This document shows, piece after piece, positions 1 through 51,611 of a stretch of 57,380 nt of DNA. Under the pieces are notes generated by a model. The model was given only the letters and a program-made list of their open reading frames with translations, was not told where the DNA came from and searched no databases. This DNA comes from a virus: UHGV virus genome UHGV-0150885. One strand, 5' to 3'. Position numbers and translations under genes: made by a program. How positions within the stretch are numbered: position 1 is the first letter of the stretch; every line of letters begins with the position of its first letter.

Positions 1-11
1 GATGTCTTAGG

Positions 12-45
12 GTCTCGTGGGCTCGGAGATGTGTATAAGAGACAG
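12..45. other. Illumina Nextera adapter (Tn5 mosaic end) - technical contaminant at contig end
   Basis: Exact match to GTCTCGTGGGCTCGG + AGATGTGTATAAGAGACAG (Nextera read-2 adapter with 19-bp ME). Confidence 0.9.
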
Positions 46-262
46 ATGTAATAATTTGTTATTAGATGAAAAAACACTTTTTTATTAATCAGTTATGGGC
101 AATTGAGGATGAAAAAAATTCTATTTACGTCACCCCTGATGAAATTTCTATAAGTATAGACGGCGATAACTTAAAGTTGCCATATTAGGAATATGGGAAA
201 GAACACGGTGCGCCGATTTTTTGCACTAAATAATTTACATTTTATGTTCAATAATTGATACT

Positions 263-470
263 AACATGTTGGATATTAAAGGTGAAATTATCACAACTGA
301 TGCGATGGGTTGCCAGAAAGATATTGCAGAGAAGATACAAAAACAGGGAGGTAATTATTTATTTGCTGTAAAAGGACATAAGGAGCGGATTAATAAAGCC
401 TTTGAGTGAAACTTCCGCTGAAAATTCAGATTAACCGCGTTCCATGCAAACAATTTTCAAATATTCATCA
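263..470 (+). pseudogene. ISAs1-family (H-repeat) transposase internal fragment, truncated at both ends and frameshifted
   Basis: Translation [38 protein letters not shown] matches conserved core of H-repeat/ISAs1 transposases; continues out of frame (KLPLKIQIN). Confidence 0.7.
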
Positions 471-486
471 ATAAATAAGGAGTTCC

Positions 487-953
487 ATGTTTATACGACC
501 AGTCAAACCTTCAGATGTTGAACCATTAATGGATATGCTGCTTGACAGGGATCAATTTGATCAAGATGGCCTTCATCATGTACAAAAAACACTAACACAT
601 TATTTCTCAGGTCAATCTGCCGATTTATGGTTTAGTGCAGAACACTTGGGACTGGCAGGGATTGCCTACTGTGCTTCTGAAATGATGACAAATGATGTCT
701 GAAATTTATTAATGCTCTGGATCAGTCCTTCCCATCAGCGCCAGGGAGTGAGACATCTGCTGATTAACGAAATAGAAAAGAGCTCACAATTAAACAGGCA
801 AGACTACTATTAGTAGAGACCGCCAGCCATATCGATTTTAGTGCCGCCCGCGCATTTTATACAAAACAGGGCTTTATCAATGAGGCGATAATACGCAATT
901 ACTATGATGTTGGTGAGGATAAATTAATCTTCACTAAAAATATGCAATCGTGA
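487..953 (+). pseudogene. GNAT-family N-acetyltransferase disrupted by at least two frameshifts
   Basis: 71-aa ORF then GNAT motif (WISPSHQRQGVRHLL) and C-terminal RAFYTKQGF in two other frames. Confidence 0.6.
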
Positions 954-1180
954 GATAAAATATGCTTTAACTCATATGGAAACATTGCTTAAACAACTTG
1001 GTTGCTGCATATGATTCTTTAGCCCGCGGTAACTCGCTTACCACTGGTAACAAACGTGCCAGCACCTAAATGATGCAACGTATTGAGCTTATCATCATCA
1101 AACTGCCAGCGGCCTTCGACAAATACCCGTGCGTCTGCCGCTGCTGATACCACTTCGCCAAAAAGGATCTCGCCTTGTTT

Positions 1181-1210
1181 ATTCGCGTTCATTCGCGTTC
1201 ATCCCTGTTC
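1181..1210. repeat. Tandem 10-bp direct repeats (ATTCGCGTTC x2 plus degenerate third) upstream of int; candidate arm/att-associated sites
   Basis: attcgcgttc attcgcgttc atccctgttc read directly. Confidence 0.5.
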
Positions 1211-1339
1211 ACTAATCCCTATCAAAAACAACAGCTTAGATTATTTTTTAGCCGTAGTGTGTCTTCTTACGTACATTGCTGTTAATATCCGTTTAACGAA
1301 AAGTGTGTACCAAAACGTGACCAAAACGAAGGGGGAAAC

Positions 1340-2533
1340 ATGTTGTCTGATACGAAATTACGAGCCATCGCCGGGAAGGCGTACACCGGGCCGGATGAAC
1401 TGGCGGACGCTGGCGGACTATCAGCCAGGGTAAGTGCGAAGGGGAAAATTACATTCCAGTACCGCTATCGTTTCAATGGTAAACCAGTGCGCTTGAAGCT
1501 GGGCGACTATGGCATCATGTCGCTAAAAGAAGCCCGCGCGGCGGTGGCAGAATGCAAGGAGATACTCGCGGAGGGGAAGAATCCGGCAACAGTATTGAAG
1601 CAGCGGATAGAAGGGGAGAAGGAGAAGAAGACGATCAGTGATGTGATTGATGATTATCTCTCAATGACCAACGTCAAAAAACTTGTTAACTACAGGGATA
1701 TTAAAAGTTTTCTACAACGCTATGTAGTGAAAGACTACGGTTTTTATATCGTTGACGATATAACGACGCGTCAATGGATGGATATATTTTCGAAGATAAC
1801 GGAGGCGGGCTACCCCGTACAGGCCGGAATAGTGTTAAAGCGAATGAAGATCGTAATTGATAACGCCATCAGGCGAGATATGGTTACAAGCCAGTCAATA
1901 AAAAATGTTCGCGTTATTGATATTGGAAACACGCCCGGCGTCGGTGAGCGGTATTTATCAACGGATGAAATTGTGGAGTTCTGGCGTGCCGTGGAAAGGT
2001 CGAGGATCTACAGCCTGCATAAGTACGCGCTTAAATTGCTGTTACTTACTGGTTGCCGTGTCATTGAATTGAGGGATGCAAAGAGATCGCATTTTGATTT
2101 AGACAATGGTGTGTGGACGGTCCCGGCTGAAATATCAAAAACCCGGCGACTGATTAGAAGGGGATTATCTGATTACGCCGTCTCTTTATTGCGTGAAATT
2201 ATGGCGGCGCATGATAAAGAGCACCTGTTACCCCCTGCGAGATCACAGGAAGATAAGCCAGCGTGTAAAACCGTAATCAAGAAAGCGGCGCTATCCGTTT
2301 ACAGCATAATGAATTGTGAGGCATGGTCATGTCATGACTTGCGCCGGACATGCCGCACTCATTTAGCAGCTATAGGAGTAGCACCGCACATAGCGGAGAA
2401 AGTATTAGGCCACGCCCTATCAGGCGTGTTAGCCGTTTATGATAAATATGACTACATTGATGAGCAAAAAGAAGCGATGAATAAGTGGGCTGATTATGTT
2501 TTATCCCTGGTTGAGATTAAGCCGCGCTCATGA
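1340..2533 (+). CDS. int: P4-type tyrosine integrase
   Basis: 397 aa; N-terminal arm-binding-like domain (LSDTKLRAIAGKAY...GKPVRLKLGDYGIMSLKEAR); C-terminal HDLRRT...H..Y catalytic motifs. Confidence 0.9.
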   Translation: MLSDTKLRAIAGKAYTGPDELADAGGLSARVSAKGKITFQYRYRFNGKPVRLKLGDYGIMSLKEARAAVAECKEILAEGKNPATVLKQRIEGEKEKKTISDVIDDYLSMTNVKKLVNYRDIKSFLQRYVVKDYGFYIVDDITTRQWMDIFSKITEAGYPVQAGIVLKRMKIVIDNAIRRDMVTSQSIKNVRVIDIGNTPGVGERYLSTDEIVEFWRAVERSRIYSLHKYALKLLLLTGCRVIELRDAKRSHFDLDNGVWTVPAEISKTRRLIRRGLSDYAVSLLREIMAAHDKEHLLPPARSQEDKPACKTVIKKAALSVYSIMNCEAWSCHDLRRTCRTHLAAIGVAPHIAEKVLGHALSGVLAVYDKYDYIDEQKEAMNKWADYVLSLVEIKPRS

Positions 2534-2736
2534 AAAAACCGCATAACGTCCTGATAGCGGTAAAGGTGGTTACATCCGGGGAAGGGGAGAGCAGCGGGCG
2601 CGGGGAATGGTGTTCCGCTGTTCTTCCACGCTTTACGCCACTTGTAAAACGTTCCCCGGCTAATGCCACCTAACATCTTACAGATATTTTCCGTCGTGAT
2701 TAGTATCGTCGTTTCCTTATCGCTGATCATATTCAT
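2494..2736 (-). CDS. xis: Excisionase/AlpA-like DNA-binding protein
   Basis: Start MNMISDK with GGGGA SD; motif ICKMLGGISRGTFYKWRK typical of AlpA/Xis HTH; adjacent and convergent to int. Confidence 0.6.
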   Translation of the reverse strand: MNMISDKETTILITTENICKMLGGISRGTFYKWRKAWKNSGTPFPAPAALPFPGCNHLYRYQDVMRFFHERGLISTRDKT

Positions 2737-3389
2737 TTCCCCGTGTATTCGACGTGTCCGATACATCCATCAATAATAGCTTGCGCCATGTTGCGATAAT
2801 CGTGTGAAAACTCATTGTCGCGGTTAAAATTAATTTCTTTTGCTGCGTCTTCACCGATAACCTTAGTGGCAAGTGCAAACGCAATTTCAGCCAGTATTTT
2901 TTCTTTCGGATCTACATACAACTTATGAGCGAAAGGCTTCCATTCCCCGGCTTGTTCAAAATCAGGCGCATCCATTTCTACAAAAAGAGCAAGGCGATCA
3001 CTTATATACTTGTATTTCAGAATAACATATTTCCGACCATCGACAGGATCTAGAAGCTCAAGCCATACTCCGCATGGCGGCTTTTCTCCTGCCATCCATT
3101 CCGTAACTTCTGGCGTATCGCAATCATGCCGCTCATCTTCGATTAATTCGTCAATGATTTCACTTTCTTTATTCATGCCATCATCATCTTTATTAGATAA
3201 ATTGGCATATTTATCAAACTTCCAGCTTGCCGCCATAACAGAATAAGTGCCGCGAGTATCAGCGCGGACACCAACTAAATAGCATGATCCAAAATTATAT
3301 TCTTCCCTGCATGTCGATACTTCGAACGATGGGTAGCATTCAGGGTTAGTGCGATGGCTAATTATACCGATTACTTTTGATTTATTCAT
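2733..3389 (-). CDS. Hypothetical protein (218 aa, acidic)
   Basis: ORF track; start chosen at ATG with GAGGA SD; no recognisable domain. Confidence 0.5.
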   Translation of the reverse strand: MNKSKVIGIISHRTNPECYPSFEVSTCREEYNFGSCYLVGVRADTRGTYSVMAASWKFDKYANLSNKDDDGMNKESEIIDELIEDERHDCDTPEVTEWMAGEKPPCGVWLELLDPVDGRKYVILKYKYISDRLALFVEMDAPDFEQAGEWKPFAHKLYVDPKEKILAEIAFALATKVIGEDAAKEINFNRDNEFSHDYRNMAQAIIDGCIGHVEYTGK

Positions 3390-3403
3390 TTGCTTATCCT
3401 CAG

Positions 3404-3580
3404 TCACGCCACGGTTACATTGTCAACCTTGATATAATATTCAGGGTTGTTTTCTATTTCAGATTTAAACTTAGAAAAACATTCACGCCATTCATTTGCT
3501 GGTCTACTAAAATAATAAACTGTATGGTTTTCTATTTTGTACAGGATACCAGTAACCTTAGCTTTGTAATAACTAACCAT
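3404..3580 (-). CDS. Small hypothetical protein (~57 aa)
   Basis: ATG overlapping ninB stop (TAATG); MVSYYKAKVTGILYKIENHTVYYFSRPANEWRECFSKF... Confidence 0.3.
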   Translation of the reverse strand: MVSYYKAKVTGILYKIENHTVYYFSRPANEWRECFSKFKSEIENNPEYYIKVDNVTVA

Positions 3581-4011
3581 TATTGCCCCCAGCGTTTTAT
3601 AAATTCCTCGTTTAATTTCGTATCACCTGACCACTGAACGCCATGCTCCGCGCCGAACGAATAAATCAATTCGATTAGTTCGCTGAATTCTGATTTACTC
3701 ATTCGACTGGTGGATGTTCCCAATACAACGAAGCCGGATTTATCCAGATTGGGGACGACGCCATATTTCTTAAGCCCGGCAGTAAATACTGCTTTCCAGT
3801 CTTCCGGCGACAGCTTCTTGCCGTACCAGTTAACCTGATCGCTAACATCGGTTAGTAGCGCCCATAACAACGCATTTTGACTCAGTGAGCGGGTTTTCTC
3901 CTGAATGGTAATTATCAGCGGGCTTTTGCTATCAGGCTGGATCTCCCTTATCTGCCTGATAGCATTTTCTTTCACGGCGTCGTTAACTATCTCAAATCTA
4001 ATTTGCCTCAT
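3580..4011 (-). CDS. ninB: NinB/Orf recombination protein
   Basis: 143 aa; near-colinear with lambda NinB (ITIQEKTRSLSQNALLWALLTDVSDQVNWYGKKLSPEDWK vs lambda VVTIQERNRSLDQNRKLWACLGDVSRQVEWHGRWLD). Confidence 0.85.
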   Translation of the reverse strand: MRQIRFEIVNDAVKENAIRQIREIQPDSKSPLIITIQEKTRSLSQNALLWALLTDVSDQVNWYGKKLSPEDWKAVFTAGLKKYGVVPNLDKSGFVVLGTSTSRMSKSEFSELIELIYSFGAEHGVQWSGDTKLNEEFIKRWGQ

Positions 4012-4205
4012 AATACACCGTTGCTATTTTTCCATTGTGCGCGCGCGTACATAATCGCCTGCAAAGAAATTAGCCGCGAGCTTGTCATAAAAGCGCCTTT
4101 TAAATATTCCATATCAACCGTAACAGGCATATCAGGATCACCGCGGCGCTTGTATTCCGCAATAGTGCTTAAATCCTCCACGGTCAATTCTAAATCCTTG
4201 TTCAT
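4008..4205 (-). CDS. Hypothetical protein (65 aa)
   Basis: ORF track; start overlaps downstream gene (operon coupling). Confidence 0.4.
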   Translation of the reverse strand: MNKDLELTVEDLSTIAEYKRRGDPDMPVTVDMEYLKGAFMTSSRLISLQAIMYARAQWKNSNGVL

Positions 4206-4214
4206 AACTCCCCC

Positions 4215-4421
4215 TTACACAATCCGCATTGTGTTTCTTAATTCCCCACGCAGCGCCCGCAACGCCTCACGAATTGGAACGAAAGCCCAGCTAAATCTTA
4301 CGTGTCTGTATTTGCGCATTAGCGGAGGTGTATAAACCATTGCGCCACAAGAATTGCATGGAAAACGGAAATGTGATTCATCAATGAATGTTTCAACTGA
4401 ATAAAAGATTACCCGTCTCAT
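4215..4421 (-). CDS. Hypothetical Cys-containing small protein (68 aa)
   Basis: ORF track; CNSCGAMVYTPP motif; coupled to neighbours. Confidence 0.4.
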   Translation of the reverse strand: MRRVIFYSVETFIDESHFRFPCNSCGAMVYTPPLMRKYRHVRFSWAFVPIREALRALRGELRNTMRIV

Positions 4422-4945
4422 AATTCTAACCCCGTTTCACCGTTAAGTTTTTCGATTTCAAATGCTGGTTTATCCGGTAACAAGCCGTTATTTTTCCGGT
4501 ATTCGTTCAGGCGGCTGTTAAATTCAAATACGATAGGACTTGAACAACCATAGAAGCGAGCTGATCTAAAAAAATATTTCCCGTCAAATTTATTGACAGT
4601 TAATAAATTTTCACTACCTAACATCTTTAAAACCCGACAGATTTTTCTCTGTTTTATTTCGAGTTTTAATTTCTTCTTAACATCCTCAGCAGAAAAATAA
4701 TCGCTACTATTCAGAAATAAAGGCATGATTTTTTTTATTGCCATTTCGCGCACTGACTTCAAGCAATATGATAACCGTGGTCCTCCCATTTCCACAGGAA
4801 TAATAGCGCCGTCAGAAACCATATCACGCAAACTGTTAACAATCTCGATTTCAGGACCTGGAATAGATTTAATGATTGTTGCTTCACCCGCGACAGTAGC
4901 ATCCTGTAAAAAATTCGCTATTTGTGTTTTATAAGTGGTTTTCAT
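4418..4945 (-). CDS. Hypothetical protein (~175 aa) in AT-rich segment
   Basis: Start MKTTYKTQ with GAGG SD; local A+T richness suggests acquired moron. Confidence 0.5.
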   Translation of the reverse strand: MKTTYKTQIANFLQDATVAGEATIIKSIPGPEIEIVNSLRDMVSDGAIIPVEMGGPRLSYCLKSVREMAIKKIMPLFLNSSDYFSAEDVKKKLKLEIKQRKICRVLKMLGSENLLTVNKFDGKYFFRSARFYGCSSPIVFEFNSRLNEYRKNNGLLPDKPAFEIEKLNGETGLEL

Positions 4946-5024
4946 TGTTTTTAGCCTCGATTTAAGCGCGAAAACAGCCACCAGAAAGCGGTCAGCTTTC
5001 CGGTAAGCCGTTTACTCAAGTTAA

Positions 5025-6446
5025 TTAAAAGGATGAGTTATTCTGGTTGTTTCGTGGGGAGAATCGGCTTGCCGCCGGACGTTGTTGCATTGACTGGATG
5101 CAAGCGGACGCCGCGCGGGCCTGGTCACATGGTAAGATATTGCCGTTGTCGTCAAACCGCTGGTAAACAGTGCCCGTTTTCCCGTGACGGTTTTTTGAAA
5201 CGATGATCTCCATATATTCGCGGGCAACAGATTGTTCGTTGTAGTAGCCATCACGGTAGACCATGATGATCCGGTCCGCATCTTGCTCCAGATTACCGGA
5301 ATCACGCAGATCAGAATTGTTCGGGCGCTTGTTCGGTCGTTCCTCAACGCGGCGGGATAATTGCGCCAGCGCCGCCACTGGTACGCGCAATTCCTTCGCC
5401 ATCATTTTCAATGACCGCGACAATTGCCCTACGGCAAGATCATGACGTTCGGCCTTAGCCAGCTTCATTAACCCGATGTAGTCAATCATTACCATTCCCA
5501 GGTTGGGATGGTCCTGTTTCATACGTTCGGTGGTGGCGCGTATTTCCTCGACCGTTAACTGCGATGCGTCAACAATCCATACGTCGAGATCGGCGAGGGC
5601 GCTCATACCCTGGGCGACGTGCGCCCACCCCTCATCGTCAAGTTTTACCGGATTACGCAAACAATCCGTTGATAAATTCCCCGCACCAGCGATGGCCCGC
5701 TCAGTTATTTGATCGAGCGACATTTCAAGCGTAAAGAGCAAAACACCGACACGATTTCCTTCGCCGCCAGGGTAAGGTCTCTCAGCCGCCGCGCGGGCAA
5801 TTGCCAACGCTAACGCCGATTTACCAGATCCCGGACGTCCGGCGATGAGCACTAAATCAGTGGCGTTAATGCCGCCTAACATTTCGTCGAGTGGGTCAAT
5901 CCCTGTTTTGATGTTGTCGGAGTTTACGCCGCATTCCATGCGCTTACTTAGCACTTCCGTGTATTCCTGCACCGCGTCGCGCAACAGCACCGGGAGGATT
6001 TCGCCTTTCGTTACTTTTAATTTTGAATACCGGGAATCAAAATCTTTCATCGTTTCCCTGACAACTTCAAGCGTACCCGTTTCCAGTTTGTAGCGAATAT
6101 CTTCTATCAGGTCCAACATTTGCCGCCGCTGGTGTTCTTCCTGCAATAATTCGGCATACCCTTTCAGGTTGGCAGCCGAAGGACACGATCGCGCCGTTTG
6201 CATCAGCGGTATGAAGTTTTCGTTACCGATTTCATCGCCAACCAATAACGCATCGATGAGATTTCTGTTTCTGGCTTGCGCCCGGATAATTTCGAACGCC
6301 CGTCTGTATAGCGGAATAGTGAAAACTTCTGGATCGAGTGTAGCAAGAACATCTTGCGCGTTAGGGGTAAGCCCGCCTAACAGAAGTCCACCAATAACCG
6401 CCGATTCCCTTTCTTGCCGCAATGAGTTTACTTGCTCAGTTATCAT
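5025..6446 (-). CDS. dnaB: Replicative DNA helicase, DnaB family
   Basis: 473 aa; Walker A GRPGSGKSALAL, DnaB N-terminal and RecA-like core motifs; strong GGAGG SD. Confidence 0.9.
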   Translation of the reverse strand: MITEQVNSLRQERESAVIGGLLLGGLTPNAQDVLATLDPEVFTIPLYRRAFEIIRAQARNRNLIDALLVGDEIGNENFIPLMQTARSCPSAANLKGYAELLQEEHQRRQMLDLIEDIRYKLETGTLEVVRETMKDFDSRYSKLKVTKGEILPVLLRDAVQEYTEVLSKRMECGVNSDNIKTGIDPLDEMLGGINATDLVLIAGRPGSGKSALALAIARAAAERPYPGGEGNRVGVLLFTLEMSLDQITERAIAGAGNLSTDCLRNPVKLDDEGWAHVAQGMSALADLDVWIVDASQLTVEEIRATTERMKQDHPNLGMVMIDYIGLMKLAKAERHDLAVGQLSRSLKMMAKELRVPVAALAQLSRRVEERPNKRPNNSDLRDSGNLEQDADRIIMVYRDGYYNEQSVAREYMEIIVSKNRHGKTGTVYQRFDDNGNILPCDQARAASACIQSMQQRPAASRFSPRNNQNNSSF

Positions 6447-6464
6447 TATGGCGTCGCCTCCGGT

Positions 6465-7583
6465 TTACAAAATGGAATATTCAGGGTAATAAACAAAGCG
6501 CCCGATTTCCCCATAATCCGGGCTGTAAATTATCACCGCCGCCAGCCGCCGCGACCGCCAACCGCCATTCGTTGAATAAGCGTCTTTACCCGCTAACGTG
6601 CCGTGGTGCTCAACGATCCCTAATGATGTTTCTACGACAGATTGATGATGCAGATGCCCCGTGTGAGCGTAAACCGCCGCCGACTTGCCGAAGTCCTCCC
6701 GCCAGTCAGAAACACAGGCAGCTAACAAATTTTCGGGTTTTTTGATGGTGTGCCCGTGATGATAAGCAAGGAATGTTTTACCGTACTGCGTGTGGTGGAC
6801 GATAGCAGGTGATACATCAACCGTTACGCGCGGTTCATCCTCGTAAAAAGCCGCCAGCGCCGCACGTAGCCAGATCATCCCCGACTGATCGTGATTGCCG
6901 GATAACACTTGTATCTCGACGTCCTTATGGTTTAACAACATTTTCCCCACCGCACGCCGGACCGACCGGATCGCCACATAAACAAGTTTTGCGTAGCGGC
7001 TATCCTGATCAAGAATATGCCCGCTTGTCGGTGTAACCGGGATCATCCCGTCAGAGTGAAGTAGATCGCCTCCGAGAAGCAAAACAGCCTTCTCAGACGT
7101 TGGTGCAGCGCCTACCGCGTAGTCGAAGAAGTCATTTAGCACGCGTTCGGCGATCCCGGTGTCGTAGCTTTCTCCGCATTCAGCTTTATGTGCAAGCGCC
7201 CCGATATGCAGATCGAATACCGGATAAAGGGCCAGGCTTTTTTGGAAATCAATTTCCGGCACTGGCACTACCTCCGCGCGTGGTATTTCTTCCGTGAATG
7301 CGTCGCAAGCCGCTTGCGTTAGCCTTTCCATTTCCTCACGGTCACGGGCCGTTTTAATCCAGCGCATGATTACATTGCCATCCTTATCAACGAGCAATGA
7401 TTCACCGTTAACACCGAAGCCAGGAGCGCGGCGCGTGGATATTAAACCGCGCTTAGCCAGCCGTGCGCCCAGGCGTTCGACGTTGCGTTTTGCCATTCCA
7501 TATTCTTCGGCTATTTGCTTGTAAGTCTTCCCCTTGTTGTACTCAGCGATCAGTTGCTCATCGCTGATCTTTCTCTGTGACAT
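6465..7583 (-). CDS. HTH domain + calcineurin-like metallophosphoesterase protein
   Basis: 372 aa; N-term YKQIAEEYGMAKRNVERL HTH; DLHIG, GGDLLHSDG, LSGNHD, GHLHH phosphoesterase motifs. Confidence 0.7.
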   Translation of the reverse strand: MSQRKISDEQLIAEYNKGKTYKQIAEEYGMAKRNVERLGARLAKRGLISTRRAPGFGVNGESLLVDKDGNVIMRWIKTARDREEMERLTQAACDAFTEEIPRAEVVPVPEIDFQKSLALYPVFDLHIGALAHKAECGESYDTGIAERVLNDFFDYAVGAAPTSEKAVLLLGGDLLHSDGMIPVTPTSGHILDQDSRYAKLVYVAIRSVRRAVGKMLLNHKDVEIQVLSGNHDQSGMIWLRAALAAFYEDEPRVTVDVSPAIVHHTQYGKTFLAYHHGHTIKKPENLLAACVSDWREDFGKSAAVYAHTGHLHHQSVVETSLGIVEHHGTLAGKDAYSTNGGWRSRRLAAVIIYSPDYGEIGRFVYYPEYSIL

Positions 7584-7616
7584 AACGTTATTTCCTCCGG
7601 TTTACGGAATGTATAC

Positions 7617-8387
7617 TCATTCAGAAAAAATAATATTCAATAACTCTTTAAATCTTGATTCATAAAAATGCGGCTGTGTTTCTCTCTGATTAGATGGGTT
7701 GGTTATATTTTTTCCGTATCGCAGACCATACACAGTTACATTCCAGAATCTTTTTTCTCCGCATTTTGCTTTACGATACTTGCGATCGACAATGCCTTTG
7801 CGTTCAAGGATTGGGTAAACTTCACGCGCAGTCATGCCAACGTTATTTTCTTCTAACAATGCTGTCAGTGATTTGGTCACGCGGCTTGATCCGTCCACAG
7901 CATCAGAAGGAGCGTCAATAGCGTAATGCGGAAGGATAGGAGGAATATTATATTCCTTCTCAATCTTCTGTAGCATACCTAACTTACCTGAATTACTCAT
8001 ATTCAGCATTCGGCCCGCCGTTTCAGCAAAAGCAAGAACATTACTGATCTGTGTGTTACCGTAATTTGGAACAGCATTTTGCCGGACTGCGTTTTCAAGT
8101 TCCTGCCAGCGGTCAACGATCCGCGCCGTAAGTTCAGGGCAAAGCTGTGCGACCACAATAATACTATCTCGCTTGCCTTCCTCCCCTTCAAAAACGTAAG
8201 CGTCCACGCCACGAATCAATCCTAAGTTATTGATTTTTCCGAAAACCTCAATTTGAGGAAGTCGGATAATCCCATTATTAGCAAGCGTCTCGATAGTGCG
8301 TTTTACGTTATCATGACGCTTACCAACCAACTCTGAAATTTCAATACTATTCATTTTAACGTTATCAAAAACCATTAATTCAGACAT
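7617..8387 (-). CDS. Rha-family phage regulatory protein/antirepressor
   Basis: Start MSELMVF with GGAG SD; N-terminal Rha/Bro-N-like domain (VFDNVKMNSIEISELVGKRHDNVKR). Confidence 0.7.
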   Translation of the reverse strand: MSELMVFDNVKMNSIEISELVGKRHDNVKRTIETLANNGIIRLPQIEVFGKINNLGLIRGVDAYVFEGEEGKRDSIIVVAQLCPELTARIVDRWQELENAVRQNAVPNYGNTQISNVLAFAETAGRMLNMSNSGKLGMLQKIEKEYNIPPILPHYAIDAPSDAVDGSSRVTKSLTALLEENNVGMTAREVYPILERKGIVDRKYRKAKCGEKRFWNVTVYGLRYGKNITNPSNQRETQPHFYESRFKELLNIIFSE

Positions 8388-8519
8388 TGTAATTTCTCCG
8401 TAAAACGCGCTACAACGCAAAAATCCCACCGCGTAACCCGTTTGCACAGGTTGCAGTGTCTTATTGCGTCAGAAACGCTATCAGGTGGCTAATTTTCGAT
8501 TTACAGACTGGTAGGTAGG

Positions 8520-8621
8520 TTATGGATTGACTAGAAGGAACAAACCGCCGAACAAGGCGACGTTAACAGCGATTGCCGCAGCGATGGCAAAAGCCAGGGC
8601 GAAAACGTGTTTACCGTCCAT
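8520..8621 (-). CDS. Tiny hydrophobic peptide (33 aa)
   Basis: MDGKHVFALAFAIAAAIAVNVALFGGLFLLVNP; AGAGAGG-like SD; below ORF-track cutoff. Confidence 0.25.
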   Translation of the reverse strand: MDGKHVFALAFAIAAAIAVNVALFGGLFLLVNP

Positions 8622-8745
8622 TTTAAAATCCTCTCTGTAACGCTCTCTGACGAGCTAATCGCAAAAAGGTAAGCAAGTGTAGCACCCAATGCGATTTAGC
8701 TCGCTGGTGAGCTTGTTTTGTGGGTAATTTTGGATTTTTGGTAAT

Positions 8746-9858
8746 TCATGATGGTATATGTTGGAAGTTACGCGTCTTGCGGAGCGTTTCCGGCTTCAAC
8801 AGAAAATCTATATCAGCCAGCCAGCCGCTTTCATTCTCACCGAAATAGAAGTTCGGCGCATCAGCTTTAAATTTCTGGAAGTAAGCAATAAAGCTGTCAA
8901 CGCTTTTGTCTTTCAGGTAGTCAGATAGCGAATGGATCTTACGTTCAATATCCCGATCCAGTTCGGCAGGTGGTAACAGGCCGTCAAACGTGCTGTTAAA
9001 TGCTTCCACCACGTCGGCAGCGTTTACAGTAGCTGACAGCTTGCGCCATTGTTCAGCATCAGCCAGATACCCATCAAACTTAGTTACCCGGCAAATGTTA
9101 ACAGGCTTAGGCACTCCACCACGGCTACGCCATTGCGTCAAAGCCCACTCAATTACTAATGTGATCTCATCCTCCGTGTATGCCTTACGTGTTTTTGTTT
9201 CTGTCAGTAGTTCGATGAATGGCTTAGTATCACGACATTTGCATCCTGCCTTTTCGTTGTAGAAAGCCAGGCAACGCAATGCAGATTCGCTTATCTGAAA
9301 GTCACCGTCCTGATTGACTTCTTTTCTTTTTATATTTTTCTTTTCTTCTTCTGTTTCTATTTCTTCTTCTACTTCTACTTCTAATCCATGGTTGTGCCAT
9401 GGTTGTGCCATGGCTGCATCATGGTTGTGCCATGGTTTTTCTTTTTCTGTATCTGGTGAATTATTTACTTCCACTAAAGGATTATCTAACTTTTTATTTT
9501 TTTTGACGTTTAGCCTTTTAATTGCCTCTCTAAATTCGCTTTTTGACGAAGCCATTGATTGATCAAGTCTTTTTGCTAACGACAGGCATCTTACAACGCC
9601 ATGTGAGCAGTCGAACAAGCCAACTTCGATGAAGTATCTCATCATTTCTTCTACACGTTTCGGACTTGATCCTACGTTCCGGGCAATGATTCTTGCATCG
9701 TGTTTTAGTTCGAATGTCAGATTATGTTGATCTACTTCGTAGGCTATTAACTCGATGCAATACCAATAAAGCCCGTATCCTTCCAGGCCATAATCAAGCA
9801 AAACGTTTTGAAGTTTTTCATCGCGGTTCGCATCGCTATCATGCTTAAACCACTTCAT
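8746..9858 (-). CDS. Replication initiation/replisome organiser protein (O-like)
   Basis: 370 aa; N-terminal WFKHDSDANRDEKLQNVLLDYGLEGYGLYWYCIEL replisome-organiser-like domain; iterons inside; upstream of helicase. Confidence 0.65.
   Translation of the reverse strand: MKWFKHDSDANRDEKLQNVLLDYGLEGYGLYWYCIELIAYEVDQHNLTFELKHDARIIARNVGSSPKRVEEMMRYFIEVGLFDCSHGVVRCLSLAKRLDQSMASSKSEFREAIKRLNVKKNKKLDNPLVEVNNSPDTEKEKPWHNHDAAMAQPWHNHGLEVEVEEEIETEEEKKNIKRKEVNQDGDFQISESALRCLAFYNEKAGCKCRDTKPFIELLTETKTRKAYTEDEITLVIEWALTQWRSRGGVPKPVNICRVTKFDGYLADAEQWRKLSATVNAADVVEAFNSTFDGLLPPAELDRDIERKIHSLSDYLKDKSVDSFIAYFQKFKADAPNFYFGENESGWLADIDFLLKPETLRKTRNFQHIPS
9387..9435. repeat. Iteron-like 11-bp tandem repeats (CATGGTTGTGC x4.5) with adjacent pyrimidine-rich tract; candidate origin inside initiator gene
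   Basis: catggttgtgc catggttgtgc catggctgcat catggttgtgc catgg; encodes MAQPWHNH repeats. Confidence 0.6.
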
Positions 9859-9860
9859 TT

Positions 9861-10115
9861 CTATTCCTCCGGCAGCATTACCAGGTAAACGTCATTTACC
9901 GGGTAAGGGTTACAAATAAATCCTTTGTGTGTTAATCCGTTGATAGCAAGTATCACCGTACTTACAGGAATTTCACACATTTTTGCGATTTCTTGGTGTG
10001 ATACCCTGGCGTGGCGGCGATTATCTGCCTTTTCAGCCAGAGCCATTAAGACAAGTTTTTGAATCGGGCTGTTAAGTTCCACTTTCCAAGCCTCATTCAT
10101 CATGTGCATACTCAT
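9861..10115 (-). CDS. HTH DNA-binding protein (Cro/CII-like regulator or O N-terminal-like)
   Basis: 84 aa; VSHQEIAKMCEIPVSTVILAINGL HTH; AGGAG SD; first gene of leftward operon. Confidence 0.55.
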   Translation of the reverse strand: MSMHMMNEAWKVELNSPIQKLVLMALAEKADNRRHARVSHQEIAKMCEIPVSTVILAINGLTHKGFICNPYPVNDVYLVMLPEE

Positions 10116-10223
10116 TGTGTTTCTCCTATGGTTAAAATGAACGCGCGGGCGGGTATCCCATTAGCATTAGGTAGCAGTGATTGACCGCTCAACAGATCCC
10201 GCCGTTGCGTGATATTTGTTTTT

Positions 10224-10255
10224 CGCTTCGCAGCGACACCAGGTTTTTAAAGAGC
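10224..10255 (-). promoter_or_regulatory. nutR-like site (boxA GCTCTTTAAAAA + boxB hairpin CGCTGCGAAGCG) on leftward transcript
   Basis: Reverse complement reads GCTCTTTAAAAACC...CGC-TGCGAA-GCG; same boxA as two + strand nut sites. Confidence 0.4.
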
Positions 10256-10335
10256 TTTTAAGGTATGCGCCTTTTTGTGCTATTCCCTCATCTTTTTTCT
10301 TGCGTCTTTGCAAGTCCGGCTTTACCTTGTCTGCA

Positions 10336-10363
10336 AGTTTACAGAATGGTGTTTTTCGGTCAA
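10336..10363 (-). promoter_or_regulatory. Candidate PR promoter (TTGACC -16- TAAACT) for leftward early operon
   Basis: Hexamers on - strand between cI start and first leftward gene. Confidence 0.4.
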
Positions 10364-10422
10364 GGCTTGAAAAATACATTTTGTGACTTGCATCAAACTT
10401 TTTAGGGCGATAGGGTAGCGAT

Positions 10423-11070
10423 ATGAAAACAAAATGGTATGACTTAGCAAAACAACTCATGCGGGCGCAAGGCATGAGCCAGGATTCATTGGCGGATCTC
10501 ATGGGGATCACAAAAGGCGGCTTATCTCACTGGCTGAATGGTCGCCGCGAGCCAAATCTTGAAGATATTGCGCGGATTATGCGGGCGCTTGGTCGTCGGC
10601 AGTTTACGGTCACTCATGACGGGATGGTTATCGATGATTCAGTTTCAAATACGTTGCCGGGAGCGCCGCCGCTCGACGTGGGACGTTATCCGGTTATTGA
10701 CTGGAAAGACGCAGGAAACTACATGGAAGAAGCAAAACGCGCATTACTACCACACGTTAACACGAGCGTGATTTGTTCGGATGATAGTTATTGGCTGGTC
10801 GCAAAAGGTGAGTCAATGAACGCACCGCAGGGATTAAGTATCCCGGCAGGGACGATGATACTTGTCGATCCGCACGCGCCAGCTATTGACGGCAAACTGG
10901 TTATAGCCCAACTGGAGGAAGGGCAAACGCCGACGTTTAAACAGTTAATCATTGATGGAGGTCAAAGGCTTTTACGTTCGCTTAATCCGCTGTACCCACC
11001 AATCCCGCTAAACCCTGAATCAAAAATTATTGGCGTGGTGGTGGATGCAAAGATCGTAAACCTGCCATAA
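10423..11070 (+). CDS. cI: CI-like repressor, HTH-XRE + LexA-like peptidase S24 domain
   Basis: 215 aa; N-term HTH (QDSLADLMGITKGGLSHWLNG); C-term S24 motifs (KGESM ... TFKQL). Confidence 0.85.
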   Translation: MKTKWYDLAKQLMRAQGMSQDSLADLMGITKGGLSHWLNGRREPNLEDIARIMRALGRRQFTVTHDGMVIDDSVSNTLPGAPPLDVGRYPVIDWKDAGNYMEEAKRALLPHVNTSVICSDDSYWLVAKGESMNAPQGLSIPAGTMILVDPHAPAIDGKLVIAQLEEGQTPTFKQLIIDGGQRLLRSLNPLYPPIPLNPESKIIGVVVDAKIVNLP

Positions 11071-11075
11071 ACATT

Positions 11076-11100
11076 AGCCGCCGGATGGCGGCTTTTCTTT
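11076..11100 (+). terminator. Rho-independent terminator after cI
   Basis: AGCCGCC-GGAT-GGCGGCT hairpin followed by TTTCTTT. Confidence 0.6.
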
Positions 11101-11180
11101 GCCCGGAAAGCACCAAAACGTAAACCGAAAACAGTTTTTATTGTTTGAATATCAATGAGATAGAAAATATTTTAAAAAAG

Positions 11181-11222
11181 TATACAAAATGGATTGACTC
11201 AACATATCACGGGGCGTATATT
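11181..11222 (+). promoter_or_regulatory. Candidate PL promoter: TATACAAAATGG box, -35 TTGACT, 17 bp, -10 TATATT
   Basis: Near-consensus sigma70 hexamers with 17-bp spacer upstream of nutL and N-like gene. Confidence 0.5.
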
Positions 11223-11267
11223 GCGAGTCAAAGGAGGGAAGGCAGTAGAAAAAAGGAAGTTTGAAAA

Positions 11268-11302
11268 TGCTCTTTAACAATCCGGTTGCACTGAAATGTG
11301 CA
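11268..11302 (+). promoter_or_regulatory. nutL-like site: boxA TGCTCTTTAACAA + boxB hairpin TGCAC-TGAAAT-GTGCA
   Basis: rrn-type boxA followed 7 nt later by 5-bp stem/6-nt loop hairpin, 30 bp upstream of N-like gene. Confidence 0.55.
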
Positions 11303-11332
11303 GACATAAATTTCAACTAAGGAAATAAGATT

Positions 11333-11623
11333 ATGAATGCGAAAATTACTTACGGTAACTGTGAGAGCAAACTTAACGCCCGCGCCCGCCGACGGATGAA
11401 ACGGGCAGCAGAGCAAGATGAAGGCCCGCACATACAGAAGGTTGATAGAGTGGAAAAAGCTATTCGCTTTGCAAATGAGGAAAAATGCGAACCAAATAGC
11501 GTTAAAGGACGTCGCAAGGGAGCAACAAAATGGTATCAGGAAAATGAAAGCGGCAACTACTTTCACGCAACGCAGCCGCGCCAGCTTGGGGAAAAACCCC
11601 TCGATAAAGTCCGATACCATTAA
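11333..11623 (+). CDS. N-like transcription antitermination protein
   Basis: 96 aa; N-terminal arginine-rich motif NARARRRMKRAAEQ like lambda/P22 N ARM; first gene after PL and nut. Confidence 0.6.
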   Translation: MNAKITYGNCESKLNARARRRMKRAAEQDEGPHIQKVDRVEKAIRFANEEKCEPNSVKGRRKGATKWYQENESGNYFHATQPRQLGEKPLDKVRYH

Positions 11624-11653
11624 TACATAACGTAAACAACAGGAGGTGACATT

Positions 11654-11776
11654 ATGGTTATCCAGGCGCTTCAATTCAAACTGGCGGTAGCGGAAATGCT
11701 TCACGATGCCGAAATGTGGAGCGCCGCGAATAAAGCCTTGTATGTGGTATTAACAGCGAAGGAGATTAAAGGGTGA
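11654..11776 (+). CDS. Small hypothetical protein (40 aa)
   Basis: Strong SD AGGAGGT 7 nt upstream; stop overlaps erf start (GTGA). Confidence 0.4.
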   Translation: MVIQALQFKLAVAEMLHDAEMWSAANKALYVVLTAKEIKG

Positions 11777-12414
11777 AAACAGAGCTACACAAGAAACTGT
11801 GGACGATTCAGCAGACGCTTAACGCGCCTAAGAATCAGCGTAATAACTTCGGGGGTTATAGCTATCGTTCAGCGGAGGATATTCTGGAAGCGGTTAAACC
11901 GCTACTTCAAAATGTCACACTAACGCTGAATGATGAAATTATCCTGATTGGTGAGCGTTATTACGTTAAAGCCACTGCGACATTAAGCGACGGCGAGGAC
12001 GCAATAGCGGTAACTGCTTACGCAAGGGAGGAAGAAAACAAGCGCGGTATGGATGCAAGCCAGCTAACAGGAGCAACATCAAGTTACGCGCGGAAATATG
12101 CCTTGAACGGTTTATTCTGCATAGACGACGCGAAAGACGCTGATACTGATGCTTATGCTAAACAGACAAATCAACAGCCACGCCAGCAGAAAAACCCGCC
12201 AAAACAACAACCGCAGCAGCAGAAAGCGCCACCAAATCCTGATGAAGTGTTAGCACGTTTCTGTGATGCGGCAGCGAAAGCGCCGGACGCGAACAAATTG
12301 CGCGAGATCTTCGGCAAGTGCTGGAAGCTACTGCCTAAAGATTCAGAACAACAACAAAAAGCGAAAGACGTTTATGACATTCGCTTAAAAGAGCTTAACG
12401 GGGAGATTAATTAA
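11773..12414 (+). CDS. erf: Erf-family single-strand annealing protein
   Basis: 213 aa; colinear with P22 Erf (NAPKNQ..YRSAEDILEAVKPLL, ERYYVKATAT, TGATSSYARKYALNGLF). Confidence 0.85.
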   Translation: MKTELHKKLWTIQQTLNAPKNQRNNFGGYSYRSAEDILEAVKPLLQNVTLTLNDEIILIGERYYVKATATLSDGEDAIAVTAYAREEENKRGMDASQLTGATSSYARKYALNGLFCIDDAKDADTDAYAKQTNQQPRQQKNPPKQQPQQQKAPPNPDEVLARFCDAAAKAPDANKLREIFGKCWKLLPKDSEQQQKAKDVYDIRLKELNGEIN

Positions 12415-50617: not shown

Positions 50618-51216
50618 TGGCTACTTTTGGCGCTTATTTACGCCTGGATAATGGCAATATTTTTGTGACGCCGGATTCTACCCCGATGTGTTTATATTCG
50701 CGGGTGGCCTTAAATTCCAGCCAGCAACAAACGATCGCTGTACCCGACGGCAAGCCTGTAATGGTATTCATCAAAAACACCGACGACACCGCCACGGGGC
50801 TTGCTTATCGCGCATCATCATCTACGGTAGTGATCCCGCCTGGTAACGGGTATGCGTATATATTCAGCATCTTCCCGCCATCGCTGCCGAGATGGGGGAT
50901 GGCTATCTGGAACGCTTCCGGGGAATTGGTACTGACCAATGAATCAAAAATATTAACCGACCTTGTTACAGTAGGCACGGCGGGATCGAGCGGGGGGATT
51001 TATATCGATCAAACATTATCAGGATCTTATGCGGTAGTGCCTCAGATATTAGGGGCCGTTGTAGGTATGGGTTCTGCAACAATATATACAGAGGCATACT
51101 ACAACGGCAGCACTACACGAATTCGCGGAAAACAGGTTGGTAGCTTGCAGCAGGCTTACAGCTACATTAACCACGGGAACGCTATCACCGCCATTAAAAC
51201 CGACGCCTATGATTAA
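50617..51216 (+). CDS. Hypothetical tail-region protein (199 aa), MATFG family
   Basis: ORF track; N-terminus MATFGAYLRLDNGN. Confidence 0.5.
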   Translation: MATFGAYLRLDNGNIFVTPDSTPMCLYSRVALNSSQQQTIAVPDGKPVMVFIKNTDDTATGLAYRASSSTVVIPPGNGYAYIFSIFPPSLPRWGMAIWNASGELVLTNESKILTDLVTVGTAGSSGGIYIDQTLSGSYAVVPQILGAVVGMGSATIYTEAYYNGSTTRIRGKQVGSLQQAYSYINHGNAITAIKTDAYD

Positions 51217-51452
51217 TTCAGTTCCGGGCAATCCGTTTTCTTGAAGTGGTCAACGCTCACCCATTGGAAATTGAACGGATACCCGGCCTTAACCATTTTG
51301 TGACCGCCAACATCTGCAACGCCAAAGACTGCAACCGCATATTCATTACCGCCAGTTTGATAGATTGCTGTACATTCACGTTTTGGCATATCAGCACAAC
51401 CAACCAGACCAGCAACCATTGCAGCGATAGCGATATTTTTTAAACCTTTCAT
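51213..51452 (-). CDS. Small lipoprotein, Cor-like candidate
   Basis: MKGLKNIAIAAMVAGLVGC lipobox; GGAGGG SD; reverse-oriented between J and tail-fibre genes. Confidence 0.6.
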   Translation of the reverse strand: MKGLKNIAIAAMVAGLVGCADMPKRECTAIYQTGGNEYAVAVFGVADVGGHKMVKAGYPFNFQWVSVDHFKKTDCPELN

Positions 51453-51611
51453 TGTCTTACCCTCCGTTGTTTCGTTGGTTGTAGTATCCATAAACCGCAT
51501 TTTTACAACATTGATGTAAATCAACAAACACATTTTGTATAAACCAGAAATGTAACATAGATCACAAAATGGTAGAATTATTCCGTTAATTAACATAATG
51601 GAGTCATTGCA

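What the first reader, a model, noticed from the sequence alone, without database searches (positions are those of the whole stretch)
2494..2533. Convergent int and xis with overlapping 3' ends
int (+) and the AlpA/Xis-like gene (-) converge and overlap by about 40 nt, with xis at the end of the leftward early operon. This differs from the lambda arrangement where int and xis are co-oriented, and implies int expression from its own promoter near attL with possible antisense interference.
Basis: seen in the sequence. Interest (0 to 1): 0.25.

Follow-up and report, generated by a model that had tools for sequence, protein, structure and literature searches.

The report
Convergent, overlapping integrase and excisionase genes
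At the left end of an E. coli prophage, the integrase gene and a small DNA-binding gene (probably the excision factor) point at each other and share 40 bases; the layout is real and conserved, but an experimentally studied Shiga-toxin phage already has it, so it is ordinary.

Summary

The window is an E. coli contig. It carries a prophage of the mEpimmI group (mEp021-like) inserted in yddH.

The overlap is not chance. All 38 related loci with an intact int and enough downstream DNA, and five of the sequenced phages examined (mEp021, mEp554, mEp013, Oslo, Pm34), have a convergent 3' overlap of 25-61 nt. Every length is 1 mod 3.

The arrangement is already known. In Stx phage Phi24B a P4-type int (35% identical to this one) and an experimentally validated xis converge and overlap by 17 nt. 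There, int runs from its own RACE-mapped promoter outside CI control, and xis sits on pL.

The small protein does not match Pfam Phage_AlpA. It is a probable distant relative of Phi24B Xis (hhalign 79%, E 1.5e-5) with a MerR/excisionase-like winged-helix model.

The overlap consists of weakly constrained protein tails. No conserved terminator or RNA structure was found. Antisense interference remains untested.

Verdict: a new member of a known kind, of low interest.

The parts
1019..1162 (-). Host DNA up to the attL crossover: the 3' part of yddH. Identity to an uninterrupted yddH locus (E. coli UPEC 536) ends at 1162. The core (crossover) sequence lies at or just left of this point.
1163..1339 (+). 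Phage arm of attL and the int regulatory region. Direct repeats phased at 10 nt: GCGTTCA at 1185 and 1195, CTGTTCA at 1205; a further CCGTTTA at 1289. These are candidate Int arm-type or RDF binding sites. An extended -10-like TGnTAATAT lies at 1280-1288, conserved in mEpimmI relatives. GGGGG ribosome-binding site at 1331-1335.
   Evidence: The motif was defined after inspecting the data, so its enrichment P value is inflated. Promoter function is inferred, not shown.
1340..2533 (+). int: a P4-type tyrosine integrase, 397 aa (Arm-DNA-bind_3 + Phage_integrase). It is 35% identical to Phi24B Int.
2494..2533 (.). The 40-nt 3' overlap. It encodes Int residues 385-397 (DYVLSLVEIKPRS*) on the + strand and residues F68-T80 of the small protein (FHERGLISTRDKT*) on the - strand. 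Third codon positions of the two frames face each other.
2494..2730 (-). Small winged-helix HTH gene, the probable excisionase (RDF), 78 aa. An alternative start at 2736 gives 80 aa; the 90-aa ORF starting at 2766 is too long.
2733..3407 (-). Upstream cistron (224 aa, homologue of mEp021 gp03). Its stop overlaps the 2736 ATG as ATGA. Nucleotide identity to the other mEp phages is higher from this gene onward than across the int-HTH cassette.
2494..10115 (-). Leftward early operon: MarR-like HTH, O-like replication protein, Ant/KilAC-like protein, exonuclease, DnaB, several small genes, NinB, and finally the HTH gene as the last cistron.
10336..10363 (-). Promoter-like site (TTGACC-16-TAAACT) in the intergenic region ahead of the leftward operon: a candidate PL.
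   Evidence: consensus match only
10423..11070 (+). CI-like repressor gene, divergent from the leftward operon, followed by a terminator-like hairpin at 11076-11093.

Best explanation
This is the integration/excision cassette of an mEpimmI-group prophage, and it is built like the cassette of Stx phage Phi24B. A P4-type integrase gene lies next to attL and reads into the prophage from its own promoter in the attL arm. A small winged-helix protein, the probable recombination directionality factor, is the last cistron of the repressor-controlled leftward early operon and reads towards int.

**Proposed working (inferred).**
- In a lysogen the repressor silences the leftward operon, so Int can be made without the RDF and the prophage stays in.
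- On induction the RDF is made and, with Int, drives excision.

**The overlap itself.** The two genes are packed so tightly that their weakly constrained C-terminal tails run into each other. The most likely reading is that the overlap is a frozen by-product of this compaction. Once two coding regions overlap, only in-frame changes are tolerated, so the phase stays locked and only the stop codons drift. A side-effect is that int and its cognate RDF cannot be separated by recombination, so they travel as one cassette.

**Shown here:** gene coordinates, the overlap, its conservation, and the homology of Int. **Inferred:** RDF function, the int promoter, and the regulatory logic.
For: **The genes and the overlap.**
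- Coordinates and the overlap.
- Int domains, and 35% identity to Phi24B Int, E 2e-72.
- Phi24B int 236..1405 (+) and validated xis 1389..1571 (-) overlap by 17 nt. Function, the RACE-mapped pInt and CI-independence are described in PMC3064807.

**The small protein as RDF.**
- Its family profile matches the Phi24B Xis family profile at 79% probability, E 1.5e-5 over 52 columns.
- PHROG excisionase family, E 4e-6.
- The AF2 model (pLDDT 79) is beta-alpha-alpha-wing-alpha. Its best PDB matches are lambda gpNu1 DNA-binding domain, BldC, RacA, the GIsul2 excisionase and a putative excisionase.
- The gene occupies the classical xis slot, last in the early-left operon, in three unrelated phage backbones: mEpimmI, Oslo and Pm34.

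**Cassette behaviour.**
- Identity matrices of the small protein and Int co-vary (Spearman 0.80 against the catalytic half).
- The int-HTH cassette is 64-68% identical in nucleotides to the other mEp phages, against 88-89% for ninB. blastn identity to mEp013 reappears at 88% exactly at 2733.

**The overlap as neutral packing.**
- Overlap length varies from 25 to 61 nt.
- L018 and L008 have 98% identical Int but overlaps of 37 and 61 nt.
- All lengths are 1 mod 3, so wobble positions face each other.
- The overlap is 82.5% identical to the closest relative, against 89-92% for the flanks.
- The last 9 residues of the small protein fall outside the modelled secondary structure, and the last 3 have pLDDT <50.
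Against: - No experiment has tested the small protein. Pfam Phage_AlpA is not hit, and HTH_17 is below threshold at 18 bits against a cut-off of 27.
- Foldseek matches all have E>0.04.
- The hhalign probability of 79% suggests homology but does not prove it.
- The mEpimmI paper names no excisionase.
- Four related loci carry a homologue of the small protein with no adjacent int.
- The int promoter is only a conserved sequence element. The consensus scan reported no promoter between 1163 and 1339.
- Universal retention of an overlap would equally fit selection for a regulatory role, which sequence data cannot exclude.
Confidence: 0.68

Rival explanations
1. The overlap is a selected regulatory device. 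With no terminator between the genes, the Gp17 (N-like) antiterminated leftward transcript reads through the xis-like gene into antisense int. Meanwhile the int transcript reads into antisense xis. Polymerase collision, or RNase III cleavage of the complementary 3' ends, would then set the Int:Xis ratio, as a functional analogue of lambda sib retroregulation.
For: - Every lineage with an intact module keeps an overlap, and none has evolved a spacer.
- No canonical intrinsic terminator lies in or near the overlap on either strand.
- mEpimmI phages have an N-like antiterminator and a nutL site beside the repressor gene. This would make leftward transcription resistant to termination; that step is inference.
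- Phi24B has a similar overlap in a different phase, 17 nt, which could reflect convergence.
Against: - The overlap is no better conserved than flanking coding sequence (82.5% against 89-92%).
- Its length varies 25-61 nt, and changes between near-identical integrases.
- No conserved RNA structure follows the int stop across 12 lineages; z-scores range from +1.5 to -3.7.
- No Rfam family matches.
- Persistence of an overlap is expected without selection, because undoing it needs a duplication.
- No expression data exist.
Confidence: 0.17
2. The small HTH protein is not the excision factor. It is a transcription regulator, for example an AlpA-like activator or a TorI/Vis-like repressor of int, or a regulator of other genes. 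The real RDF would be encoded elsewhere, or Int would need none.
For: - The Pfam hits are generic HTH families (HTH_23, HTH_28, HTH_29); Phage_AlpA and the excisionase families are not reached.
- The best PHROG is 'DNA binding protein', E 1.9e-11.
- Some homologues occur without int.
- Known RDFs such as TorI also regulate transcription, so the two roles are not exclusive.
Against: - The position, co-variation and physical linkage with int hold across at least 6 lineages and 3 phage backbones.
- The profile matches the validated Phi24B Xis family.
- Fold matches include excisionases.
- No Pfam excisionase or AlpA family turned up among the leftward-operon proteins scanned. The rest of the prophage was not scanned.
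Confidence: 0.13
3. The overlap is an annotation artefact: one of the two ORFs is not a real gene, or it ends earlier.
For: - The longest-ORF call for the small gene (90 aa) is too long at its 5' end.
- The deposited annotations of mEp554 and Oslo lack the full ORF.
Against: - Stop codons fix both 3' ends, and neither can end earlier.
- Both proteins are conserved to within a few residues of their C-termini across lineages with 38-63% identity.
- The Int domain hits are strong.
Confidence: 0.02

Closest known systems
Recombination module of Stx2 phage Phi24B (vB_EcoP_24B, HM208303; Fogg et al., Nucleic Acids Res 2011, PMC3064807)
   Same: - P4-type integrase at the genome/prophage end, 35% identical to this Int, in 'inverted' orientation relative to lambda.
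- A small winged-helix Xis encoded on the opposite strand immediately 3' of int, as the last gene of the leftward pL operon.
- The two genes overlap at their 3' ends.
- There, int has its own promoter outside CI control and xis is CI-controlled.
   Different: - The overlap is 17 nt there and 40 nt here, in a different codon phase (2 against 1 mod 3).
- Phi24B Xis is 60 aa and matches Pfam HTH_17. The protein here is 78 aa, has an insertion between helix 2 and the wing, is related only at profile level, and matches only generic HTH families.
- The phage backbone differs: lambdoid Stx phage against mEpimmI, whose leftward operon carries the replication genes.
- RDF activity is shown for Phi24B and not here.
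mEpimmI phages (mEp021, mEp554, mEp515, mEp010, mEp013, mEp044; Negrete-Mendez et al., Front Microbiol 2025, PMC11893012)
   Same: - Same gene order, with 84-90% nucleotide identity in ninB, dnaB and neighbouring genes.
- int at the left end, with a convergent overlapping HTH gene (gp02 in mEp021), overlapping by 61 or 43 nt.
   Different: - The int-HTH cassette here is a different allele (63% and 59% protein identity to mEp021).
- It targets yddH, which is not among the sites reported (ydaM, abgT, mppA).
- The paper discusses neither an excisionase nor the overlap.
KplE1/HK620/Sf6 recombination module (Panis et al., PLoS Genet 2010, PMC2951348)
   Same: [quoted passage not shown]
- int and RDF transcription are uncoupled.
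- Protein-binding repeats overlap the promoter.
   Different: In KplE1 the RDF gene (torI) is the last gene at the other end of the prophage, so attP lies between it and int. The genes are neither adjacent and convergent nor overlapping.
Lambda int-xis
   Same: - A tyrosine integrase plus a small winged-helix RDF.
- The RDF is expressed from the repressor-controlled, N-antiterminated leftward operon.
   Different: In lambda, xis and int are co-oriented and co-transcribed from PL, with PI inside xis and sib retroregulation downstream of int. Here the genes converge.

Membership tests
P4-type tyrosine integrases (Arm-DNA-bind_3 + Phage_integrase) | N-terminal arm-DNA-binding domain PF13356 and C-terminal catalytic domain PF00589, both above the Pfam gathering score | tested here: met
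   PF13356 65.9 bits (cut-off 27); PF00589 68.7 bits (cut-off 27.1); phrog_1 integrase E 3e-65
Pfam Phage_AlpA (PF05930) | Match to the family HMM at or above the gathering score | tested here: not met
   The family is not listed for the window protein or any of 12 homologues, even at E<=1
Pfam HTH_17 (PF12728; MerR-like excisionase-type HTH) | Match to the family HMM at or above the gathering score (27 bits) | tested here: not met
   18.0-18.3 bits, E 0.003, covering only the first 24 profile positions; 6 of 13 family members give a sub-threshold hit. The Phi24B Xis family does carry PF12728.
Winged-helix excisionase / MerR-like fold | Strand-helix-turn-helix followed by a beta wing, with structural similarity to solved excisionases | tested here: inconclusive
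   AF2 model with pLDDT 79: E12-14, H15-21, H27-40, E58-60, H61-71. Foldseek top hits are gpNu1 DNA-binding domain, BldC, RacA, GIsul2 excisionase 8c3t and putative excisionase 2kvv, but all have E>=0.047 and TM 0.35-0.48.
Phi24B-type recombination module | Integrase homologous to Phi24B Int | tested here: met
   35% identity over 388 aa, E 2e-72
Phi24B-type recombination module | int next to the att site and opposite in orientation to the leftward early operon; small HTH gene convergent with int and immediately 3' of it | tested here: met
Phi24B-type recombination module | 3' ends of int and xis overlap | tested here: met
   40 nt here against 17 nt in Phi24B, in a different codon phase
Phi24B-type recombination module | Small protein homologous to Phi24B Xis | tested here: inconclusive
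   hhalign family against family: probability 79%, E 1.5e-5, 29% identity over 52 columns. No hit by tblastn.
Phi24B-type recombination module | The small protein is required for Int-mediated excision; int promoter is independent of the CI repressor | not testable with these tools
   Needs excision assays and transcript mapping. Only a conserved TGnTAATAT at 1280-1288 is seen.
mEpimmI phage group | Synteny and sequence similarity with mEp021-type genomes | tested here: met
   Same gene order; 84-90% nucleotide identity across ninB, dnaB and neighbours
mEpimmI phage group | Integrase type and site among those described (types I-III at ydaM, abgT, mppA; type IV with unknown site) | tested here: not met
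   Insertion is in yddH, and yddH is not mentioned in the paper. Whether this Int equals type IV (ctx8n3) could not be checked, because that record is not in the collection.
KplE1/HK620-type module | RDF gene at the opposite prophage end from int, with attP between them | tested here: not met
   Here the candidate RDF abuts int at the same end, whereas torI is the last gene and intS the first in KplE1
Lambda-type int-xis | xis and int co-oriented and co-transcribed | tested here: not met
   The genes are on opposite strands

The most novel reading that the evidence does not exclude
The phase-locked 3' overlap, kept in every lineage of this integrase/HTH cassette, may be a functional switch and not just tight packing. 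Gp17-antiterminated leftward transcription would run antisense through int while int transcription runs antisense through xis. Polymerase collision, or RNase III cleavage of the complementary 3' ends, would then make Int and Xis expression mutually antagonistic. This would be a convergent-gene equivalent of lambda's sib retroregulation.
Probability: 0.15. Interest if true: 0.5.

Novelty: new member of a known kind. Interest (0 to 1): 0.2.

Why it matters
The finding has mostly practical value.

- **A candidate excisionase.** It points to the probable excisionase of the mEpimmI coliphages, a gut-prevalent group whose 2025 description names none. It ties that protein to the one experimentally studied convergent int-xis module, in Phi24B.
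- **A rarely annotated family.** The small-protein family is tiny: 27 representative clusters in 1.84 billion. It is regularly missed or mis-framed in deposited annotations.
- **A problem for prophage callers.** Its overlap with int appears to make prophage callers cut the element at the xis stop and drop the integrase.
- **Biology.** It adds more examples of a cassette in which Int is uncoupled from the lytic operon, a layout linked in Phi24B to constitutive Int and multiple lysogeny. It does not reveal a new mechanism.

Tried and rejected
- **Terminator or RNA structure in or beside the overlap.**
  - The consensus scan gave only weak sites at chance level.
  - Folding 2470-2560 on both strands gave z-scores of +0.9 and +0.1.
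  - A strong hairpin at about 2585-2628 (+ strand, z -2.5) has no U-tract. It is not conserved across 12 lineages and seems to arise from the GGAAC...TTCC complementarity of the G-T-P-F-P codons.
  - Rfam at E<=1 found nothing in 1-12000.
- **attR / direct repeat of the attL core.** It is not in the window. The window ends inside tail-fibre genes, and no repeat of 14 nt or more from 1100-1345 occurs elsewhere.
- **Sequence search of the PDB with the family profile.** It gave only a spurious similarity to glutamate decarboxylase.
- **Genome-contig scan with the family patterns.** It gave one irrelevant Patescibacteria hit.
- **Literature searches for convergent, overlapping int/xis.** They were unproductive until the Phi24B paper turned up. 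The Serratia phage paper and the dusA island paper were read and found not relevant to the arrangement.
- **Type IV integrase check.** ctx8n3 (BK020724) is not in the phage collection.
- **KplE1 as closest analogue.** Rejected as the closest match, because torI and intS lie at opposite prophage ends.

Full report
**1. What is in the sequence**

The window is an E. coli contig.
- Bases 12-45 are an Illumina Nextera adapter.
- Bases 46-1165 match E. coli chromosomes at up to 99.8% identity. They carry an ISAs1 transposase fragment, small ORFs and the 3' part of yddH.
- Aligned to the uninterrupted yddH locus of strain UPEC 536, identity is perfect up to base 1162. It then drops to a degenerate resemblance for about 25 nt. 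The attL crossover is therefore at or just left of 1162.
- No tRNA gene is present. attR lies beyond the end of the window, which stops in tail-fibre genes.

Gene calls around the finding:
- **int** is 1340..2533 (+), 397 aa, with Arm-DNA-bind_3 and Phage_integrase domains.
- **The small ORF** on the minus strand ends with TAA at 2496-2494. Its longest form starts at 2766 (90 aa). The homologues are 75-78 aa and begin at the position of M13. A GGGG ribosome-binding site lies 8 nt before the ATG at 2730. The ATG at 2736 overlaps the stop of the upstream gene as ATGA.
- The gene is therefore 2494..2730 (78 aa), or possibly 2494..2736.
- Either way the two genes share 2494..2533, exactly 40 nt.
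That cannot remove an overlap at the 3' ends.

**2. Context**

The prophage belongs to the mEpimmI group of Nus-dependent, non-lambdoid coliphages (archetype mEp021; PMC11893012).
- It has the same gene order as mEp021, mEp554 and mEp013, with 84-90% nucleotide identity in ninB, dnaB and neighbouring genes.
- From 10115 down to 2494 the minus strand carries a tightly packed run of genes. Many have overlapping stop and start codons. In order they are: MarR-like HTH, O-like replication protein, Ant/KilAC-like protein, exonuclease, DnaB, small genes, NinB, two more genes, and finally the small HTH gene.
- The run begins next to a divergent CI-like repressor gene (10423..11070) and a promoter-like site at 10363..10336.
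- The published work places an N-like antiterminator (Gp17) and a nutL site beside the repressor gene.
- 'Last gene of the leftward early operon' is therefore a fair description. In this phage group that operon is also the replication operon.

**3. Is the overlap more than chance?**

Yes.
- A pattern scan of IMG/VR with the small-protein alignment gave 80 loci.
- In all 38 loci with an intact int and enough downstream DNA (29 distinct sequence pairs), int is convergent and the 3' ends overlap by 25, 31, 37, 43, 55 or 61 nt.
- These loci fall into at least six lineages. Their small proteins are 42-59% identical and their integrases 38-63% identical.
- Sequenced phages show the same:

| Phage or locus | Overlap (nt) |
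|---|---|
| mEp021, mEp554 | 61 |
| mEp013 | 43 |
| Salmonella phage Oslo | 55 |
| Proteus phage Pm34 | 25 |
| L089 (closest relative, same chromosomal neighbourhood) | 40 |

- Exceptions are a disrupted int (L011), a truncated small gene (L028), one contig end, and four loci where a homologue of the small protein has no adjacent int.

**4. What the small protein is**

- Pfam gives only generic HTH families: HTH_23 at 30 bits, plus HTH_28 and HTH_29. HTH_17 is below threshold. Phage_AlpA is absent even at E<=1.
- PHROGs gives 'DNA binding protein' (E 1.9e-11) and an excisionase family (E 4e-6).
- The family is very small. The word-indexed search found 15 proteins. An exhaustive HMMER search of 1.84 billion representatives found 27. 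Public names are only 'helix-turn-helix domain-containing protein'.
- An AlphaFold model (pLDDT 79) shows strand, two helices, a long loop or wing, strand and a C-terminal helix. The best PDB matches are MerR-like winged helices: lambda gpNu1 DNA-binding domain, BldC, RacA, the GIsul2 excisionase and a putative excisionase. All have weak scores, E>=0.047.
- The most informative comparison is with Phi24B Xis, an experimentally validated excisionase. Profile against profile, hhalign gives 79% probability and E 1.5e-5 over 52 columns, almost the whole of Phi24B Xis. The matched signatures are GFPxP against GTPFPxP and YSRQAV against YRYQDV.
- The gene sits in the classical xis slot in three unrelated backbones.
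- Its divergence tracks that of Int (Spearman 0.80 with the catalytic half).
- The int-HTH pair behaves as a cassette. It is 64-68% identical in nucleotides to the other mEp phages, against 88-89% for ninB. blastn identity to mEp013 reappears at 88% exactly at 2733.

My conclusion is that it is probably the recombination directionality factor (about 0.7).

**5. The closest known system**

Phi24B (HM208303) has int at 236..1405 (+) and xis at 1389..1571 (-). These are convergent, overlap by 17 nt, and xis is the last gene of the leftward operon.

Fogg et al. (PMC3064807) showed four things:
- int is 'inverted' relative to lambda;
- it is transcribed from its own promoter, mapped by 5'-RACE;
- it is not repressed by CI;
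- the small ORF 3' of int is needed for excision and stays under pL/CI control.

The window's Int is 35% identical to Phi24B Int (E 2e-72).

KplE1/HK620 shares the principle that the int promoter lies in the attL arm and is uncoupled from the RDF. There, however, the RDF gene is at the other prophage end.

**6. The int promoter region**

- Between the crossover and the ATG (1163-1339), an alignment of ten mEpimmI relatives shows a conserved TGnTAATAT (1280-1288), an extended -10-like element about 50 nt upstream of the ATG.
- It also shows repeated (C/G)(C/T)GT(T/A)(C/T)A motifs.
- In the window these motifs lie at 1185, 1195 and 1205, exactly 10 nt apart, and at 1289. All four are on the + strand, against 0.26 expected. 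That statistic is post hoc.
- mEp021 and mEp554 show the same 10-nt phasing.
- The motifs are candidate Int arm-type or RDF sites. One abuts the putative -10, which would allow autoregulation of the KplE1 type. None of this is shown.
- The consensus promoter scan found nothing there.

**7. What the overlap itself means**

- It covers Int residues 385-397 (DYVLSLVEIKPRS) and residues F68-T80 of the small protein. That is the last turn of each protein's final helix plus tails outside the modelled secondary structure.
- All overlap lengths in the family are 1 mod 3, so the third codon positions of the two frames face each other. This is the least constraining antiparallel phase. Phi24B's 17 nt is in a different phase.
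- Lengths change through stop-codon drift. L018 and L008 have 98% identical Int but overlaps of 37 and 61 nt.
- Against the closest relative the overlap is 82.5% identical, while the flanking coding sequence is 89-92% identical.
- No canonical terminator, conserved hairpin or Rfam family was found.

The simplest reading is extreme compaction that became frozen. Once two coding regions overlap, only in-frame changes are tolerated, and undoing the overlap needs a duplication. A side-effect is unbreakable linkage of int with its cognate RDF.

A selected role in antisense or convergent-transcription control is not excluded. The lack of a terminator and the N-like antitermination of the leftward operon make read-through plausible. 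Nothing in the sequence argues for such a role, and I give it about 0.15-0.2.

**8. Verdict**

- The feature is a new member of a known kind, the Phi24B-type convergent int-xis cassette.
- Its main value is for annotation of mEpimmI phages and for prophage boundary calling.
- Interest: 0.2.

Noticed in passing
window 12-45: An Illumina Nextera transposase adapter (GTCTCGTGGGCTCGGAGATGTGTATAAGAGACAG) sits at the start of the contig. This is untrimmed library sequence, not biology.
   Followed up: partly
window 1019-1192 and junction at 1162: The prophage is inserted inside yddH (flavin reductase family), about 146 nt from its 3' end. Phage DNA beyond the junction is a degenerate copy of the displaced yddH segment, creating a 57-aa ORF (1019..1192, -). 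yddH is not among the integration sites (ydaM, abgT, mppA) reported for mEpimmI phages. The closest relative, L089, lies next to pptA in what appears to be the same neighbourhood.
   Followed up: partly
L004, L006, L007, L009, L013, L014, L016, L017, L019, L021 and about 30 more IMG/VR loci: Many IMG/VR prophage contigs end exactly at the stop codon of the small HTH gene, so the overlapping integrase and attL are cut off. The convergent overlap seems to mislead prophage boundary trimming.
   Followed up: no
L002 (mEp554, PP180005) 1340-1570; L086 (phage Oslo, NC_018279) 3001-3252: The deposited annotations miss the 76-81-aa HTH ORF and instead call short ORFs that do not span it (1390..1518 in mEp554; 2991..3104 in Oslo). 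The full ORF is intact in both.
   Followed up: yes
window 2585-2628 (+ strand): A strong hairpin (13 or more pairs; the 141-nt segment folds at -57.5 kcal/mol, z -2.5) lies inside the HTH gene, 50-95 nt past the int stop, with no U-tract. It overlaps the codons for the invariant GTPFP motif, whose GGAAC...TTCC codons are self-complementary. It is not conserved across lineages.
   Followed up: partly
L030 5635-5856 (-), also L027, L033, L053: Four IMG/VR loci (contigs of about 20-25 kb) carry a homologue of the small HTH protein with no adjacent integrase. L030 also encodes a canonical AlpA-like protein about 1.4 kb away. These may be a different element type or a decayed module.
   Followed up: partly
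window 2497-2736 (protein); PDB 7x4l: The family profile gives a spurious local hit (E 0.005) to a segment of glutamate decarboxylase (MLGG..WRKK..G.PF.P). This is a chance resemblance, and worth knowing when searching with this family.
   Followed up: no
window 46278-50255 and 51612-55589: Two large tail genes (a J-like tip protein and an Ala/Thr-rich fibre protein) are both exactly 1325 aa, although their sequences are unrelated. A small lipoprotein-like gene lies between them on the minus strand (51213..51596), possibly the Lpp superinfection-exclusion gene described for this phage group.
   Followed up: no
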